The position numbers and the translations under genes were made by a program. Shown here in pieces: positions 38,372 through 58,547 of a stretch of 64,000 nucleotides of DNA. The stretch comes from Haliotis rubra (Eukaryota), in the NCBI RefSeq assembly GCF_003918875.1, contig NW_025766525.1, forward strand, positions 438,865-502,864, given 5' to 3'. How positions within the stretch are numbered: the stretch's first letter is position 1; each line of letters opens with the position of its first letter. The notes beneath the pieces were generated by a model, which was not told the DNA's origin, did not search any database, and was given only the letters and a program-made list of their open reading frames with translations.

Positions 38372-41003
38372 GTGTGACATGATGGTGGTATTAGACTGTG
38401 TGACATGGTGGTGGTATTAGACTGTGACATGATGGTGGTATGAGACTGTGTGACATGTTGGTGGTATTAGACTGTGACATGATGGTGGTATTAGACTGTG
38501 TGACATGATGGTGGTATTAGACTGTGTGACATGATGGTGGTATTAGACTGTGTGACATGATGGTGGTATTAGACTGTGTGCCATGATGGTATTAGACTGT
38601 GTGACATGATGGTGGGTGATAGACTGTGTGACATGATGGTGGTATTCTACTGTGTGACATGATGGTGGTATTCTACTGTGTGACATGATGGTGGTATTCT
38701 ACTGTGTGACATGATGTTGGTATTAGACTGTGATATGATGGTGGTATTCTACTGTGTGACATGACGGTGGTATTCTACTGTGTGACATGATGGTGGTATT
38801 CTACTGTGTGACATGATGGTGGTATTCTACTGTGTGACATGATGGTGGTGATAGACTGTGTGACATGATGGTATTCTACTGTGTGGCATGATGGTGGTAT
38901 TCTACTGTGTGACATGATGGTGGTGATTAGACTGTGTGACATGATGGTGGTATTAGACTGTGTGATATGATGGTGGTATTAGACTGTATGACATGATGGT
39001 ATAGTGGTATTGTGTGACTGGTGTAGACTGTGTGACATGATGGGTGGTATTAGACTGTGTGACATGATGGTATAGTGGTGGTATTAGACTGTGTGACATG
39101 ATGGTGGTATTAGACTGTGTGACATGATGGTATAGTGGTATTCTACTGTGTGACATGATGTGGTGAGTATTAGACTGTGTGACATGATGGTGGTATTAGA
39201 CTGTGTGCCATGATGGTGGTATTAGACTGTGTGACATGATGGTGGTATTCTACTGTGTAGACATGTGGTATTAGATGACATGGTGGTATACTGTGATGAC
39301 TGTGTGACATGATGGTGGTATTCTACTGTGTGACATGATGGTGGTATTAGACTGTATTGACATGATGGTGGTATTAGACTGTGTGACATGATGGTGGTAT
39401 TAGACTGTGTGACATGATGGTGGTGATTCTACTGTGTGACATGATGGTGGTATTAGACTGTGACATGATGGTGGTATTCTACTGTGTGACATGATGGTAT
39501 TAGACTGTGGTATGGTGGTATTCTACTGTGTGACATGATGTTGGTATTAGACTGTGTGACATGATGGTGGTATTCTACTGTGTGACATGATGGTATTGAC
39601 TGTGTGACATGATGGTGGTATTAGACTGTGTGACATGATGGTGGTATTAGACTGTGTGACATGATGGTGGTGATAAGACTGTGTACTGTGTGACATGATG
39701 GTGGTATTCTACTGTGTGACATGATGGTGCTATAAGACTGTGTGACATGATGGTGGTATTAGACTGTGTGACATGATGGTATTCTACTGTGTGGCATGAT
39801 GGTGGTGATAAACTGTGTGACATGATGGTGGTATTAGACTGTGACATGATGGTGGTATTAGACTGTGTGATATGATGGTGGTATTAGACTGTATGACATG
39901 ATGGTATAGTGGTATTAGACTGTGTGACATGATGGTGGTATTAGACTGTGTGACATGATGGTATAGTGGTATTAGACTGTGTGACATGATGGTGGTATTA
40001 GACTGTGTGACATGATGGTATAGTGGTATTAGACTGTGTGACATGATGGTGGTATTAGACTGTGTGACATGATGGTATAGTGGTATTCTACTGTGTGACA
40101 TGGTGGTATTGGACTGTGTGACATGATGGTGGTATTAGACTGTGTGACATGATGGTGGTATTCTACTGTGACATAATGGTGGTATTAAACTGTGTGACAT
40201 GATGGTGGTATTAGACTGTGTGACATGATGGTGGTATTAGACTGTGTGACATGATGGTGGTATTCTACTGTGCGTGATGGTGGTATTCTACTGTGTGACA
40301 TAATGGTGGTATTCTACTGTGTGACATGATGGTGGTATTAGACTGTGTGACATGATGGTGGTATTCTACTGTGTGACATGATGGTGGTATTCTACTGTGT
40401 GACATGATGGTGGTATTAAACTGTGTGACATGATGGTGGTATTAGACTGTGACATGATGGTGGTATTAAACTGTGTGACATGATGGTGGTATTAGACTGT
40501 GTGACATGATGGTGGTATTCTACTGTGTGACATGATGGTGGTATTAGACTGTGACATGATGGTGGTATTAGACTGTGTGACATGATGGTATTAGACTGTG
40601 TGACATGATGGTGGTATTAGACTGTGTGACATGATGGTGGTATTAGACTGTGTGACATGATGGTGGTATTCTACTGTGTGACATGATGGTGGTATTAAAC
40701 TGTGTGACATGATGGTGGTATTAGACTGTGTGACATGATGGTGGTATTAGACTGTGTGACATGATGGTGGTATTAGACTGTGTGACATGATGGTGGTATT
40801 CTACTGTGTGACATGATGGTGGTATTAGACTGTGTGACATGATGGTGGTATTAGACTGTGTGACATGATGGTATTAGACTGTGTGACATGATGGTGGTAT
40901 TAGACTGTGTGACATGATGGTGGTATTAGACTGTGTGACATGATGGTGGTATTAGACTGTGTGACATGGTGGTGGTATTCTACTGTGTGACATGGTGGTG
41001 GTA
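38372..41003. repeat. Minisatellite, 26 bp unit (gactgtgtgacatgatggtggtatta), about 100 copies
   Basis: Direct reading. Variants ctactgtg and gactgtg alternate. Confidence 0.9.
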
Positions 41004-41246
41004 TTAGACTGTGAAGTTAAGATGATATTGTGTGTTCTGTGATGCAGGATGTCTATGGCACCCCAGGTATTAGACTGTGAAGTAAAGATGATATTGTGTG
41101 TTCCATTGATGCAGGATGTCTATGGCACACCAGGTATTAGACTTTGAAGTAAAGATGATATTGTGTGTTCCGTGATGCAGGATGTCTATGGCACCCCAGG
41201 TATTAGACTGTGAAGTAAAGATGATATTGTGTGTTCCGTGATGCAG
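41000..41246. repeat. About 68 bp unit x4 tandem repeat made from the exon-4 acceptor, the first 19 nt of exon 4 and one unit of the 26 bp minisatellite
   Basis: gtgaagtaaagatgatattgtgtgttccgtgatgcag|GATGTCTATGGCACCCCAG|gtattagact is repeated four times. The fourth copy continues into the real exon (…CCCCAGGAAGGACATC…). Confidence 0.85.
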
Positions 41247-41361
41247 GATGTCTATGGCACCCCAGGAAGGACATCTTGTGTCTGCTGAGTCAGCAACAAT
41301 GCAGCTTCTACTTCCGACACACTCACAACAAGAGCAGCTATGCCTTCCCTCAGTTGGAAAG
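41247..41361 (+). CDS. WDCP: WDCP-like gene, coding exon 4 (G|GCLWHPRKDILCLLSQQQCSFYFRHTHNKSSYAFPQLE, phase 1 in, phase 2 out)
   Basis: Acceptor gtgatgcag|G and donor GAAAG|gtgagt. It continues exon 3 in phase. Recollected WDCP has LPQGCVWHPKSAILTVL here. Confidence 0.6.
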
Positions 41362-41439
41362 GTGAGTTCATTTTGGAGGTGAAAGTCACTCCATTTTGTC
41401 CACCCCTTAATGACCCCTCCCATCATTTGTCAACCCAAC

Positions 41440-57202: not shown

Positions 57203-57716
57203 GTAAGTCTTGTTCAGTGTGCAACTGCTTCTTGGGAGTCCATTGTGTGTCATTTTGAAATCAGTTGTGCTAGCTTGTAAACAAAGTGTACTGGCTGCCG
57301 GATGATCAAAGGCACCACAGGAACTGTGGAGAGTTATCTCCCCTGGCCAGTTCAAAACAAATGAGTACTTCCTTGATTTTTGCTTTAACAAAAGTGGTAA
57401 AATGTATTCTGTTTACAAGACCAAAAGCTTTCCTGTCAAGTGACCCACACTCATATGACTGAAATACCATTCAAACTTTAACTGAAACTCACTTCAAACA
57501 AACAGAGCTTGTCTTCGATTTCCGTAAAGTTTGTTTGATATTAGAGTAACAAGTTTCAGAATGTTTAGACTGCAGAAATTCTGTTTGTGTCAAGTAGATT
57601 AAAGCACTTATGTCGGTGTCGTCAACCAGGAGGTATTATTGAAGTCGATTTCCATAGATTTGTCATTGGCTTGTTTTGATGCTTGTGAAAGTATATTTTG
57701 TTATTTTGACTCTCAG

Positions 57717-57848
57717 AGAAGGTGAAGGTTATCTATGAGACATCTGATGGCCACACTCTGACCAGGTCATTCCTGCTGGACTCAGGCCGACTGCAACTTG
57801 ATCCTGTCAAACAAGCGTTCGGTCTCGCCACAGTCGAACTTATCATGG
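57717..57848 (+). CDS. WDCP: WDCP-like gene, coding exon 15 (EKVKVIYETSDGHTLTRSFLLDSGRLQLDPVKQAFGLATVELIMG, phase 1 in and out)
   Basis: Acceptor tgactctcag|A and donor ATGG|gtgagt. Only one frame is open. The downstream minisatellite keeps the frame open, but it is intronic. Confidence 0.6.
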
Positions 57849-57869
57849 GTGAGTACAGCAGACCTCTCT

Positions 57870-58547
57870 TCAACTCGTCCTACAGGTCACCACTGGGGTT
57901 ACTCTTCCAGTTGTCCTACAGGTCACGACTGGGGTTACTCTTCCAGTCGTCCTACAGGTCTCGACTGGGGTTACTCTTCCAGTTGTCCTACAGGTCATCG
58001 ACTGGGGTTACTCTTCCAGTTGTCCTACAGGTCTCGACTGGGGTTACTCTTCCAGTTGTCCTACAGGTCTCGACTGGGGTTACTCTTCCAGTTGTCCTAC
58101 AGGTCTCGACTGGGGTTACTCTTCCAGTCGTCCTACAGGTCTCGACTGGGGTTACTCTTCCAGTCGTCCTACAGGTCATGACTGGGGTTACTCTTCCAGT
58201 TGTACTACAGGTCATGACTGGGGTTACTCTTCCAGTCGTCCTACAGGTCTCGACTGGGGTTACTCTTCCAGTCGTCCTACGGGTAACGACTGGGGTTACT
58301 CTTCCAGTCGTCCTACGGGTCAACGACTGGGGTTACTCTTCCAGTCGACCTACAGGTCATGACTGGGGTTACTCTTCCAGTCGTCCTACAGGTCACGACT
58401 GGGGTTACTCTTCCAGTCGTCCTACGGGTAACGACTGGGGTTACTCTTCCAGTCGTTCTACAGGTCACGACTGGGGTTACTCTTCCAGTCGTCCTACGGG
58501 TAACGACTGGGGTTACTCTTCCAGTTGTCCTACAGGTCATGACTGAG
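57870..58547. repeat. Minisatellite, 36 bp unit (ggttactcttccagttgtcctacaggtcacgactgg), about 19 copies
   Basis: Direct reading, starting 20 bp after the exon-15 donor. Confidence 0.9.

What the first reader, a model, noticed from the sequence alone, without database searches (positions are those of the whole stretch)
38372..58547. Introns of one gene carry at least nine unrelated kb-scale minisatellites, some abutting exons
The arrays are at 38372-41003 (26 bp unit), 41440-44003 (20/40 bp), 44972-45690 (52 bp), 45815-48395 (32 bp), 50280-50455 (21 bp), 51375-52665 (54 bp), 52775-53447 (19 bp) and 57870-58547 (36 bp). Together with the upstream arrays they make up roughly 40% of the gene span. 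The units share no sequence, so they arose independently. Several begin within 20-100 bp of a splice site: 57870 is 20 bp after the exon-15 donor, 45815 is 15 bp after the exon-6 donor, and 41440 is 80 bp after the exon-4 donor. Most arrays are strongly strand-asymmetric (G-run rich on the plus strand in 8962-10960 and 45815-48395, and pyrimidine-rich in 41440-44003). This is compatible with G-quadruplex or R-loop formation during transcription, and it suggests a locus-specific propensity for replication slippage.
Basis: partly seen in the sequence, partly recalled or inferred. Interest (0 to 1): 0.6.

Follow-up and report, generated by a model that had tools for sequence, protein, structure and literature searches.

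The report
Minisatellite-stuffed introns of abalone WDCP
The window holds the blacklip abalone (Haliotis rubra) WDCP gene, whose introns are more than one-third short-unit tandem repeats that grew in place from ordinary intron sequence. This is a real and striking case of a known phenomenon, probably tied to the gene's position near a chromosome end, and not a G-quadruplex or R-loop effect.

Summary
All eight listed arrays exist at the stated coordinates. The period at 50302-50452 is 19 bp, not 21. The host gene is a 16-exon WDCP orthologue on the + strand. Its product matches the H. rubra RefSeq protein XP_046570895.1 outside two small model differences.

Tandem repeats fill 58% of the finding span and 36-38% of the CDS span. 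They also fill 27-29% of the 12.6 kb upstream of the ATG.

Comparison with H. asinina, H. rufescens and H. cracherodii shows that most arrays were amplified in place from single-copy intron sequence. The arrays differ in age, and each lineage has its own set: 9%, 55% and 30% of the gene respectively.

Arrays stop at least 17 nt from donors and at least 20 nt from acceptors. One exception is a rubra-specific 66-bp x4 repeat that copies the exon-4 acceptor.

No array holds a canonical G4 motif. GC skew has no consistent direction, and only one unit forms a strong hairpin. The G4/R-loop idea is therefore not supported.

The locus lies 1.1-1.3 Mb from a chromosome end in two chromosome-scale assemblies. 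A regional, distal-chromosome enrichment of minisatellites fits best. Whether the density is locus-specific or genome-wide could not be settled here.

The parts
12639..59146 (+). WDCP orthologue, CDS span, 16 coding exons: e1 12639-12693, e2 27115-27232, e3 35301-35461, e4 41247-41361, e5 44601-44673, e6 45732-45799, e7 50117-50242, e8 51135-51250, e9 53605-53727, e10 54297-54392, e11 54732-54909, e12 55189-55724, e13 56549-56595, e14 57144-57202, e15 57717-57848, e16 58974-59146.
   Evidence: tblastn with mollusc WDCP proteins. Splice-site model with AG/GT at every junction. Pfam PF15390 WDCP, E 4.6e-75. Identical to H. rubra XP_046570895.1 outside the exon-7 frameshift patch; e16 starts at the last-exon acceptor that RefSeq uses, which I adopted. 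All exons found in three other Haliotis loci.
38370..41013 (.). Intron 3 array, 26 bp x102 (CTGTGTGACATGATGGTGGTATTAGA), G-skewed (+0.58).
   Evidence: H. asinina has only about 2 units (53 bp) in intron 3 and the N. American species have none, so this is a rubra-lineage expansion.
41000..41266 (+). 66 bp x4 repeat. Each unit is the last 14 nt of the 26-bp array, the 34-nt intron end with the 3' splice site, and about the first 18 nt of exon 4; the repeat runs 20 nt into exon 4. The fourth copy is the real acceptor and exon start.
   Evidence: (95% matches) and the sequence. H. asinina has a single copy.
41439..43991 (.). Intron 4 array, 20 bp x128 (CTGTACCACTGTACCCTGAG), C-skewed. It starts 77 nt after the exon-4 donor.
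   Evidence: H. asinina has a 296-bp relative at the same place. H. rufescens and H. cracherodii have a different 69-71-bp array there.
44973..45659 (.). Intron 5 array, 52 bp x13 with a 314-bp higher-order period. It ends 72 nt before exon 6.
   Evidence: A single about 70-bp progenitor sits at the orthologous spot in all three other species.
45817..48390 (.). Intron 6 array, 32 bp x79 (AGGGTGGGGATTCACTGTGTACCCTGTACACC). It starts 17 nt after the exon-6 donor.
   Evidence: There are 48 diverged copies in H. asinina and a 1.3-copy progenitor at about +15 to +17 of the intron in H. rufescens and H. cracherodii.
49792..50075 (.). 137 bp x2.1 duplication of a dispersed short element. It ends 41 nt before exon 7.
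   Evidence: The unit matches 6-8 scattered places on both strands in H. rufescens and H. cracherodii.
50178..50190 (+). 13-nt insertion in exon 7 (CATGAGTGCGACC, equivalently GTGCGACCCATGA). It partly duplicates the neighbouring GTGCGACC and shifts the reading frame.
   Evidence: Absent from the three other Haliotis species. The RefSeq protein is flagged LOW QUALITY. It may be an assembly error.
50302..50452 (.). Intron 7 array, 19 bp x8.5, C-rich. It starts 59 nt after the exon-7 donor.
   Evidence: Not found in the other species.
51373..52667 (.). Intron 8 array, 54 bp, about x24, with no skew.
   Evidence: Not found in the other species. H. rufescens and H. cracherodii carry an unrelated 38-bp array in intron 8.
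52778..53442 (.). Intron 8 array, 19 bp x35 (GCCCTCTTCATCACCACCT), strongly C-rich (skew -0.79).
57866..58549 (.). Intron 15 array, 36 bp x19 with a 217-bp higher-order period. It starts 17 nt after the exon-15 donor. The unit holds an 8-bp inverted repeat.
   Evidence: A single-copy progenitor lies directly after the donor in the other three species. DNA fold -26.3 kcal/mol against -10.9 +/- 2.2 for shuffles, z -7.
18773..19427 (.). Intron 1 array, 86 bp x8, present as an array in all four Haliotis species (the oldest array).
20173..21191 (.). Intron 1, two adjacent 171/172-bp arrays of a family that also occurs in Lottia and Pinctada.
   Evidence: rubra_172 versus the Lottia 161-bp unit z 8.0; versus the Pinctada 162-bp unit z 4.0.
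22551..24485 (.). Intron 1 array, 40 bp x44. It is related to the 30902 array (inverted) and to the 23-bp intron-3 array of H. rufescens and H. cracherodii.
25339..25701 (.). Intron 1 array, 21 bp, about x17. The other species have 2-3 units.
30902..31869 (.). Intron 2 array, 40 bp x25, shared with H. asinina (669 bp).
4634..6001 (.). Array upstream of the start codon, 32 bp x42.
   Evidence: Absent from the 10 kb upstream of the ATG in the three other species.
8962..10997 (.). Array upstream of the start codon, 39 bp, about x50, G-rich. It is the only array with appreciable G4Hunter signal.
   Evidence: 21% of windows at or above 1.2, maximum 2.08, no canonical G4 motif.

Best explanation
These are ordinary intronic minisatellites (VNTR-type arrays).

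Origin. Each array was born in place. A short stretch of unique intron sequence of 19-54 bp was duplicated. It was then amplified by replication slippage and unequal sister-chromatid or homologue exchange. The higher-order periods show that blocks of several units were also copied.

Turnover. Births and expansions have gone on throughout Haliotis evolution. Each lineage therefore carries its own mix of old shared arrays and young private ones.

Consequences. The arrays are most likely neutral or slightly harmful ballast. They inflate introns of a few hundred bases to several kilobases. Selection only keeps them off the core splice signals.

Why so dense here. The high density most likely reflects the chromosomal neighbourhood, in a genus where kb-scale intronic minisatellites also occur in other genes. 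The locus lies about 1.1-1.3 Mb from a chromosome end, the kind of region where long-unit tandem repeats pile up in other animals. It does not reflect a property of the WDCP gene or DNA structures formed during its transcription.

Shown: the arrays, the gene model, in-situ origin, lineage-specific turnover, avoidance of splice cores, lack of G4 and of consistent skew, and distal position in two species.

Inferred: the slippage/unequal-exchange mechanism, neutrality, and the causal role of the distal position.
For: - Arrays and their periods.
- Gene identity and species: WDCP, H. rubra.
- In-situ origin. Single-copy or 1-3-copy progenitors at orthologous intron positions were found for the 32-bp (intron 6), 36-bp (intron 15), 52-bp (intron 5), 26-bp (intron 3) and 21-bp (intron 1) units and for the 66-bp junction unit.
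- Not transposon insertions. No array matches anything else in the window.
- Age series. The 86-bp array is in all four species. The 40-, 20- and 32-bp arrays are shared only with H. asinina. The others are private to H. rubra.
- Turnover. The tandem-repeat share of the gene is 38% (rubra), 55% (rufescens, including a 26.4-kb array of 297-bp units), 9% (asinina) and 30% (cracherodii), with different introns affected.
- Intron sizes. Without arrays, rubra introns 4-8 and 15 are 371-1417 bp, similar to whole introns in H. asinina.
- Higher-order periods of 314, 217 and 117/156 bp.
- Splice cores spared. No array starts closer than +17 nt to a donor or ends closer than 20 nt to an acceptor in any of the four species. 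The one exception is the 66-bp junction repeat.
- Not confined to the gene. The upstream 12.6 kb is 27-29% arrays, and small 2-5-copy repeats occur at 0.4-0.8 per kb everywhere in the window.
- Distal position. The locus is 1.11 Mb from the end of a 71.8-Mb chromosome in H. asinina and 1.33 Mb from the end of a 76.75-Mb scaffold in H. cracherodii.
- Precedents. Human VNTRs that are GC-rich (>60% GC) with units over 15 bp are 21-fold enriched within 5 Mb of chromosome-arm ends; the paper separately names PTPRN2 and DLGAP2 as the genes holding most VNTRs (PMC7608644). A polymorphic 27-bp x62 minisatellite sits in intron 3 of the H. discus hannai TSSK1-like gene (PMC6905558).
Against: - The flanks of the gene in the three other species are much poorer in repeats: 0.3-3% upstream and 11-18% downstream, against 9-55% in the gene. 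This fits a gene-centred effect at least as well as a purely regional one.
- The chromosomal position of the H. rubra contig itself is unknown.
- No recombination map or genome-wide repeat profile was available.
- RepeatMasker figures for H. asinina (simple repeats 1.30%, satellites 0.01%, PMC11393055) suggest the genome average is far lower than here, but the methods are not comparable.
- Array sizes in H. rubra come from a Nanopore-based assembly.
Confidence: 0.6

Rival explanations
1. Locus-specific hot spot. Something intrinsic to the WDCP locus raises the rate of short tandem duplication there and has done so for a long time. Candidates are its replication timing, a fork barrier, its chromatin, or a weak sequence 'core' shared by the units.
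For: - The tandem-repeat share of the gene exceeds that of its flanks in all 7 molluscs examined. Gene versus flanks, roughly: rubra 38 vs 24%, rufescens 55 vs 10%, asinina 9 vs 8%, cracherodii 30 vs 7%, Lottia 10 vs 3%, Pinctada 13 vs 9%, Nucella 18 vs 16%.
- Arrays that swallow exon ends or splice sites recur in this gene:
  - Lottia: 60 bp x5, exon end plus GTAAGT donor.
  - Pinctada: 38 bp x17, KDTLLNLPRNPE plus GT, and a 123 bp x9 array holding last-exon coding sequence.
  - Nucella: duplicated pieces of exons 3 and 4.
  - H. rubra: 66 bp x4 over the exon-4 acceptor and a 13-nt exon-7 duplication.
- CTGTA/TACAG occurs in 13 of 40 independent unit families against 3.8 expected, and GGGTA in 9 against 2.0. 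The family-wise p is about 0.015.
- Related units appear in different introns of the gene: 22551 in intron 1, 30902 in intron 2 (inverted), and the rufescens intron-3 array.
Against: - The species are not independent. H. rufescens and H. cracherodii share most of their arrays.
- Flank samples are only 5-12.6 kb each.
- H. asinina and Nucella show almost no gene-versus-flank difference.
- In compact genes, exons make up about 15-20% of the span, so some arrays touching exons is expected by chance.
- In H. rubra the region upstream of the ATG is nearly as repeat-rich as the gene.
- The k-mer signal is modest (k=6 family-wise p 0.08) and some unit families may be related.
- No genome-wide baseline was available.
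Confidence: 0.2
2. Genome-wide property. Abalone introns in general are full of such arrays and this window is typical.
For: - An unrelated abalone gene has a 27-bp x62 polymorphic intronic minisatellite plus other intron length polymorphisms (PMC6905558).
- Small young tandem duplications occur all over the window and its flanks at 0.4-0.8 per kb.
- Arrays also lie outside the CDS span.
- Flanks in the other species still carry 11-18% repeats downstream of the gene.
Against: - The upstream flanks in three species are only 0.3-3% repeats.
- The H. asinina WDCP gene is only 9% repeats.
- Genome-wide RepeatMasker simple repeats are 1.30% in H. asinina (PMC11393055).
- The mean H. rubra intron is about 2.0 kb (PMC6774278).
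- A genome with 35% minisatellite would be expected to show in the published repeat tables, and the two checked (H. discus hannai, H. asinina) do not show it.
Confidence: 0.12
3. Transcription-linked non-B DNA. G-quadruplexes or R-loops formed on the transcribed gene stall replication and drive slippage.
For: - 8962-10997 is G-rich on the + strand, with G4Hunter at or above 1.2 in 21% of windows.
- 38370-41013 has GC skew +0.58.
- The overall dispersion of skew among units exceeds binomial expectation (chi-square p 0.003).
Against: - No canonical G4 motif occurs in any array on either strand.
- The arrays inside the finding have essentially no G4Hunter signal on the + strand.
- Skew direction is split 7 to 7, and the strongest skews inside the gene are C-rich on the coding strand.
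- The only G4-prone array lies upstream of the start codon.
- Only one of ten units tested forms a hairpin better than shuffles.
Confidence: 0.04
4. Transposon-borne arrays. The minisatellites are internal repeats of mobile elements (Helitron/MITE/SINE-associated tandem repeats, common in molluscs) that inserted into the introns.
For: - The 137-bp unit at 49792 is a dispersed element.
- The 171/172-bp arrays at 20173-21191 belong to a family that is also tandem in Lottia and Pinctada.
- H. rufescens and H. cracherodii carry 22-bp arrays whose unit appears, by eye, to match an internal segment of a SINE that is present in several copies in the window (unit, SINE sequence, copies).
Against: - For the main arrays of the finding, the unit exists as unique sequence at the orthologous intron position in other species.
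- None of these units recurs elsewhere in 300 kb of Haliotis sequence.
- The array flanks align with orthologous intron sequence right up to the array edge.
Confidence: 0.04

Closest known systems
Human subtelomeric VNTR enrichment and human VNTR-dense genes such as PTPRN2 and DLGAP2 (PMC7608644)
   Same: Many independent tandem arrays with units over 15 bp lie within one gene near a chromosome end. Copy number changes quickly.
   Different: The human subtelomeric VNTRs are GC-rich (above 60%), and that paper reports the enrichment and the VNTR-dense genes as separate results. Here GC is 39-59% with no common G-rich core. The distal position is shown only for orthologous loci in two sister species, and regional enrichment has not been measured.
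[quoted passage not shown]
   Same: Same genus, same unit-size class, kb-scale, intronic, with documented length variation between individuals.
   Different: That gene has a single array. Here at least 15 arrays lie in one gene and fill over a third of it.
Classical hypervariable minisatellites with a shared core sequence (Jeffreys-type; from my own knowledge)
   Same: Head-to-tail 10-100 bp units and growth by unequal exchange or gene conversion. There is a hint of a shared short motif (CTGTA/GGGTA enrichment).
   Different: There is no GC-rich chi-like core. The motif enrichment is weak and exploratory. Meiotic instability was not tested.
Tandem duplication of splice junctions and internal gene duplication as a source of new splice sites or introns (Gao & Lynch 2009; Hellsten et al. 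2011; from my own knowledge)
   Same: The 66-bp x4 repeat copies a complete 3' splice site plus the exon start. The Lottia and Pinctada arrays copy an exon end plus donor.
   Different: There is no evidence here that the extra sites are used or that a new intron arose. Use of an upstream acceptor copy would run into a TAG after 8 codons, as read from the sequence.
Intronic minisatellites linked to alternative splicing in C. elegans (PMC4039745; title and abstract only)
   Same: Tandem repeats in introns lie close to splice sites.
   Different: No sign of regulatory conservation. The arrays differ between sister species, which argues against a conserved splicing role.

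Membership tests
Minisatellite / VNTR | Head-to-tail tandem copies of a 10-100 bp unit | tested here: met
   TRF periods of 19-54 bp (up to 172 bp elsewhere in the window), 8.5-128 copies, 81-96% matches.
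Minisatellite / VNTR | Array length of about 0.1-30 kb at a single locus, not a dispersed satellite | tested here: met
   Arrays are 0.15-2.6 kb. The units are unique within the window and within 240 kb of sister-species sequence, apart from orthologous positions.
Minisatellite / VNTR | Variable copy number between individuals | not testable with these tools
   Only between-species variation could be shown, for example 1.3, 48 and 79 copies of the intron-6 unit. Population data are needed.
G4- or R-loop-forming repeat | Four G-runs of at least 3 with short loops, or a G4Hunter score at or above about 1.2-1.5 | tested here: not met
   There are zero canonical motifs in any array on either strand. 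G4Hunter reaches 1.2 in 0-0.4% of + strand windows for the arrays inside the finding.
G4- or R-loop-forming repeat | Consistent G-richness of the non-template (coding) strand | tested here: not met
   Seven units are G-rich and seven are C-rich. The strongest intragenic skews are C-rich.
Transposon-internal tandem repeat (mollusc Helitron/MITE/SINE-associated) | Unit or flanks present as dispersed copies | tested here: not met
   Not met for the eight arrays of the finding. Met only for the 137-bp unit at 49792. The 171/172-bp arrays belong to a tandem family shared with Lottia and Pinctada.
Transposon-internal tandem repeat (mollusc Helitron/MITE/SINE-associated) | Terminal repeats, target-site duplications or Helitron ends flanking the array | not tested
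   The flanks align to orthologous unique intron sequence, which makes this unlikely. Termini were not searched for.
Subtelomeric VNTR-dense gene | Location within a few Mb of a chromosome end | tested here: inconclusive
   Met for the orthologues: 1.11 Mb from the end in H. asinina and 1.33 Mb in H. cracherodii. The H. rubra contig is not placed on a chromosome.
Subtelomeric VNTR-dense gene | Regional excess of long-unit tandem repeats relative to chromosome interiors | not testable with these tools
WDCP protein family (host gene) | Match to PF15390 above its threshold and orthology to annotated WDCP | tested here: met
   PF15390 at 253.8 bits against a cut-off of 25.3. 98% identity to H. rubra WDCP-like and 87% to H. 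rufescens.

The most novel reading that the evidence does not exclude
WDCP is a long-lived hot spot for short-unit tandem duplication across molluscs. In seven species from gastropods to bivalves the gene is richer in minisatellites than its flanks. Arrays repeatedly capture exon ends and splice sites. Unrelated units share a weak CTGTA/GGGTA(C) core. This would point to a conserved local cause, such as a replication or recombination feature tied to this locus, that seeds duplications. It would also supply raw material for new splice sites.
Probability: 0.12. Interest if true: 0.6.

Novelty: new member of a known kind. Interest (0 to 1): 0.3.

Why it matters
The four-species series catches minisatellites at every stage of their life: a unique progenitor, 1.3 copies, a few copies, about 50 diverged copies and about 80 homogeneous copies. 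All of this sits in one gene with known exon landmarks, which is a clean natural record of how such arrays are born and grow. It shows that arrays can take over 60-85% of an intron and triple a gene's length while leaving only about 17-20 nt around each splice site untouched. It also warns annotators. The repeats go with a LOW QUALITY RefSeq model, duplicated splice sites, and gene sizes that differ from 47 to 80 kb between sister species. If the locus proves to be an outlier genome-wide, it would be a handle on what makes a region prone to tandem duplication. Otherwise it is an ordinary, if extreme, case.

Tried and rejected
- Rfam scan of the whole window: no family reached threshold.
- tRNA scan: none found, although two SINE-like families are present.
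- Literature search for SINE sequence fragments: nothing.
- Exact look-ups of the exon-12 ORF, to find the source organism: nothing on record.
- Mytilus proteins and the two representative Haliotis proteins: not on record as genes. Cluster members worked instead.
- The first protein search with concatenated exons missed Haliotis altogether. A profile search found it.
- Ashwin, the downstream neighbour in Lottia, Pinctada and H. asinina, was not detectable in the last 4.9 kb of the window.
- Automatic single-linkage clustering of units over-merged families, so I replaced it with a curated list.
- Hairpin formation as a general driver: rejected, since only the 36-bp unit folds better than shuffles.
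- Similarity between the rubra 26-bp unit and the rufescens intron-3 23-bp unit: not significant (z 1.8).
- Similarity between the 20-bp unit and the upstream 39-bp unit: not significant (z 1.2).

Full report
**Observation.**
- 38370-41013: 26 bp x102
- 41439-43991: 20 bp x128
- 44973-45659: 52 bp x13
- 45817-48390: 32 bp x79
- 50302-50452: 19 bp x8.5, not 21 bp
- 51373-52667: 54 bp, about x24
- 52778-53442: 19 bp x35
- 57866-58549: 36 bp x19

Two arrays were missed: 41000-41266 (66 bp x4) and 49792-50075 (137 bp x2.1). More arrays lie upstream, at 4634, 8962, 18773, 20173/20710, 22551, 25339 and 30902. Arrays cover 58% of the finding span and 36-38% of the CDS span. They cover 27-29% of the 12.6 kb upstream of the start codon. 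In the last 4.9 kb they cover 0% counting the 17 main arrays and 12% counting every TRF array of period 7 or more.

**The gene and the organism.** Stop-free stretches on the + strand, searched as a concatenated peptide, hit mollusc WDCP proteins (PF15390). tblastn placed the exons. I built a 16-exon model with AG/GT at every junction.

A profile search then found 'LOW QUALITY PROTEIN: WDCP-like [Haliotis rubra]' at 98% identity and H. rufescens at 87%. The rubra protein is identical to my model apart from two places. One is the patch RefSeq applied over a frameshift in exon 7. The other is the choice of last-exon acceptor, where I adopt RefSeq's. The window therefore comes from the H. rubra reference assembly. 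That assembly is Nanopore-based with Illumina polishing (PMC6774278), so array copy numbers and small indels are approximate.

**Comparative evidence.** I fetched the orthologous loci of H. rufescens (L004), H. asinina (L005) and H. cracherodii (L006), and of Lottia, Pinctada and Nucella (L001-L003). All 16 exons map in the three abalones.

Gene span and tandem-repeat share:

| Species | Gene span | Repeat share of gene |
|---|---|---|
| H. rubra | 46.5 kb | 38% |
| H. rufescens | 79.5 kb | 55% |
| H. asinina | 48.7 kb | 9% |
| H. cracherodii | 51 kb | 30% |

H. rufescens carries a 26.4-kb array of 297-bp units in intron 1. The Lottia gene is 12 kb and the annotated Pinctada gene 9.2 kb (about 13.6 kb with its downstream last-exon array), with repeat shares of 10% and 13%. 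Different introns are affected in different species. With arrays subtracted, rubra introns 4-8 and 15 are 371-1417 bp, in the range of whole introns in H. asinina.

**How the arrays arose.** I searched each rubra unit against the other loci and aligned intron ends. The results form an age series:
- The 86-bp intron-1 array is present in all four species.
- The 40-bp (intron 2), 20-bp (intron 4) and 32-bp (intron 6) arrays are shared only with H. asinina.
- The 26-, 52-, 36- and 21-bp arrays are rubra expansions of sequence that is single-copy, or 1-3 copies, at the orthologous position in the other species.
- The 19-, 54- and 19-bp arrays of introns 7 and 8 and the two upstream arrays have no detectable counterpart.

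The intron-6 case is the clearest. H. rufescens and H. cracherodii have 1.3 copies of the unit about 15-17 nt after the donor, H. asinina has 48 diverged copies, and H. rubra has 79 homogeneous copies. The 36-bp unit of intron 15 is likewise unique sequence lying immediately after the donor in the three other species.

No array unit recurs elsewhere in the window. The arrays are therefore in-situ amplifications and not transposon insertions. There are two exceptions. The 137-bp unit at 49792 is a dispersed element. The 171/172-bp arrays belong to a family that is also tandem in Lottia and Pinctada.

Higher-order periods of 314, 217 and 117/156 bp show multi-unit copying. Together with the copy-number turnover, this fits slippage plus unequal exchange. 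That mechanism is an inference.

**Proximity to splice sites.** At the other intron ends, arrays stop 41 nt before exon 7 and 72 nt before exon 6.

This proximity follows from kb-scale growth inside introns that were originally a few hundred bases long, seeded from whatever sequence lay there. Across all four species no array starts closer than 17 nt to a donor or ends closer than 20 nt to an acceptor. This fits selection protecting only the core splice signals.

The one exception is the rubra-specific 66-bp x4 repeat. Each unit joins the edge of the 26-bp array, the 34-nt intron end with its 3' splice site, and about the first 18 nt of exon 4. H. asinina has one copy. Reading through from an upstream acceptor copy meets a TAG after eight codons. 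Whether the extra sites are used is unknown.

- G4: no canonical motif occurs in any array on either strand. G4Hunter reaches 1.2 in 0.4% of windows of 45817-48390 and in none of the other G-containing intragenic arrays. Only 8962-10997, upstream of the ATG, has real signal (21% of windows).
- GC skew: it is strong in four of the eight arrays but in both directions. Among 14 units, 7 are G-rich and 7 are C-rich. Only 2 are individually significant. Dispersion as a whole exceeds binomial expectation (p 0.003).
- Hairpins: only the 36-bp unit folds far better than shuffles (z -7).

Neither G4, R-loop nor hairpin formation is a general feature of these arrays.

**Are the units unrelated?** Mostly yes. 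The exceptions are as follows:
- The 22551 and 30902 units are related in inverted orientation. The 22551 unit also resembles the 23-bp intron-3 unit of H. rufescens and H. cracherodii (z 6.5-7.3). That motif occurs only inside those arrays.
- The 20- and 32-bp units share TGTACCCTG (z 4.3).

In a curated set of 40 unit families from the four abalones, CTGTA occurs in 13 against 3.8 expected and GGGTA in 9 against 2.0. The family-wise p is about 0.015 for k=5 and 0.08 for k=6. This is a weak, exploratory hint of a shared core.

**Locus, region or genome?** This could not be settled.

Evidence against a purely gene-bound effect:
- The rubra upstream region is nearly as repeat-rich as the gene.
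- Young 2-5-copy duplications occur everywhere in the window at 0.4-0.8 per kb.
- Another abalone gene has a polymorphic 27-bp x62 intronic minisatellite (PMC6905558).

Evidence for local enrichment:
- The flanks in the other three abalones are 0.3-3% repeats upstream and 11-18% downstream, against 9-55% in the gene.
- The gene exceeds its flanks in all seven molluscs. These are not independent samples, and the margins are tiny in H. asinina and Nucella.
- RepeatMasker simple repeats are only 1.30% genome-wide in H. asinina (PMC11393055), although the methods are not comparable.

A regional cause is suggested by position. The locus is 1.11 Mb from the end of a 71.8-Mb chromosome in H. asinina and 1.33 Mb from the end of a 76.75-Mb scaffold in H. 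cracherodii. In humans, GC-rich VNTRs with units over 15 bp are 21-fold enriched within 5 Mb of chromosome-arm ends (PMC7608644). I take this as the best explanation (confidence 0.6). A locus-specific hot spot (0.2) and a genome-wide property (0.12) are the main rivals.

**Verdict.** The host gene, species and evolutionary history of the arrays are now known. The independent origin of the arrays is supported, and the G4/R-loop idea is not. The thing itself is a dense cluster of ordinary intronic minisatellites, a new and well-resolved example of a known kind. Interest is modest at 0.3. The most novel reading still open is a conserved tandem-duplication hot spot at WDCP across molluscs, with probability about 0.12.

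Noticed in passing
window 50178-50190 (exon 7): A 13-nt insertion that partly duplicates the neighbouring GTGCGACC. It shifts the WDCP reading frame and creates a stop in exon 7. It is absent from H. rufescens, H. asinina and H. cracherodii, and RefSeq flags the protein LOW QUALITY. It is either a real null allele or a Nanopore assembly error.
   Followed up: partly
window 41000-41266: Four tandem 66-bp copies of the exon-4 3' splice site plus the start of exon 4. Copy 3 is identical to the real one. Each upstream copy is followed by GT, so a 19-nt pseudo-exon (AG...CAG|GT) is repeated three times. Including all three would add 57 nt in frame.
   Followed up: partly
L001 17313-17610 (Lottia); L002 14005-14662 and 22398-23493 (Pinctada); L003 18172-18503 and 19339-19622 (Nucella): WDCP orthologues in distant molluscs also carry tandem arrays that include exon ends with their donor sites. 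Lottia has 60 bp x5. Pinctada has 38 bp x17, where the donor GTAAAG is formed by the junction of two units. Pinctada also has 123 bp x9 copies of last-exon coding sequence, and Nucella has duplicated pieces of exons 3 and 4.
   Followed up: partly
L004 20743-47133 (H. rufescens intron 1): A 26.4-kb array of about 90 copies of a 297-bp unit (79-bp sub-period) inside intron 1 of WDCP. It is absent from the sister species H. cracherodii and accounts for most of the 80-kb gene size.
   Followed up: no
window 20173-20631 and 20710-21191: Two adjacent arrays of a 171/172-bp unit. The unit is significantly similar to 161-162-bp tandem units next to WDCP/Ashwin in Lottia (z 8) and Pinctada (z 4). This is probably an old tandem-repeat family widespread in molluscs, possibly the Helitron/MITE-associated type described in bivalves (that link is from memory).
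   Followed up: partly
window 105-270, 17518-17670(-), 37737-37912, 58645-58810(-); and 11883-12153, 54083-54228, 56632-56904(-), 61853-61982, 63850-63994: Two SINE-like families of about 170 bp and about 275 bp that share a head. ARAGORN and Rfam do not call them. In H. rufescens and H. cracherodii a 22-bp segment that, by eye, matches the longer one (TAGTCGCCTCTTACGACAAGCA) has itself expanded into small arrays in intron 1.
   Followed up: partly
window 22551-24485 versus 30902-31869; L004 70121-72858: Related 40-bp units sit in intron 1 and, inverted, in intron 2 of H. rubra. A related 23-bp unit (TGTTACTTAGACCA...) fills the end of intron 3 in H. rufescens and H. cracherodii. The motif is not dispersed outside these arrays, so the arrays or their seeds may have moved between introns of the same gene.
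   Followed up: partly
window 2838-3856 (+) and 62213-62530 (-): Decayed DNA-transposon remnants. One is a Tc1/mariner-like helix-turn-helix and DDE fragment, below the Pfam cut-offs. The other is a pogo/Tc5-type DNA-binding domain (PF03221, 32 bits against a cut-off of 22).
   Followed up: partly
window 57866-58549: The 36-bp unit contains a perfect 8-bp inverted repeat (CCAGTCGT...ACGACTGG). It also contains a pyrimidine tract ending in CAG|G that resembles a 3' splice site, repeated 19 times just downstream of the exon-15 donor.
   Followed up: partly
L005 and L006 record coordinates: WDCP with Ashwin downstream lies 1.1-1.3 Mb from a chromosome end in H. asinina and H. cracherodii. The WDCP-Ashwin tail-to-tail neighbourhood is conserved from Pinctada and Lottia to Haliotis.
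   Followed up: no
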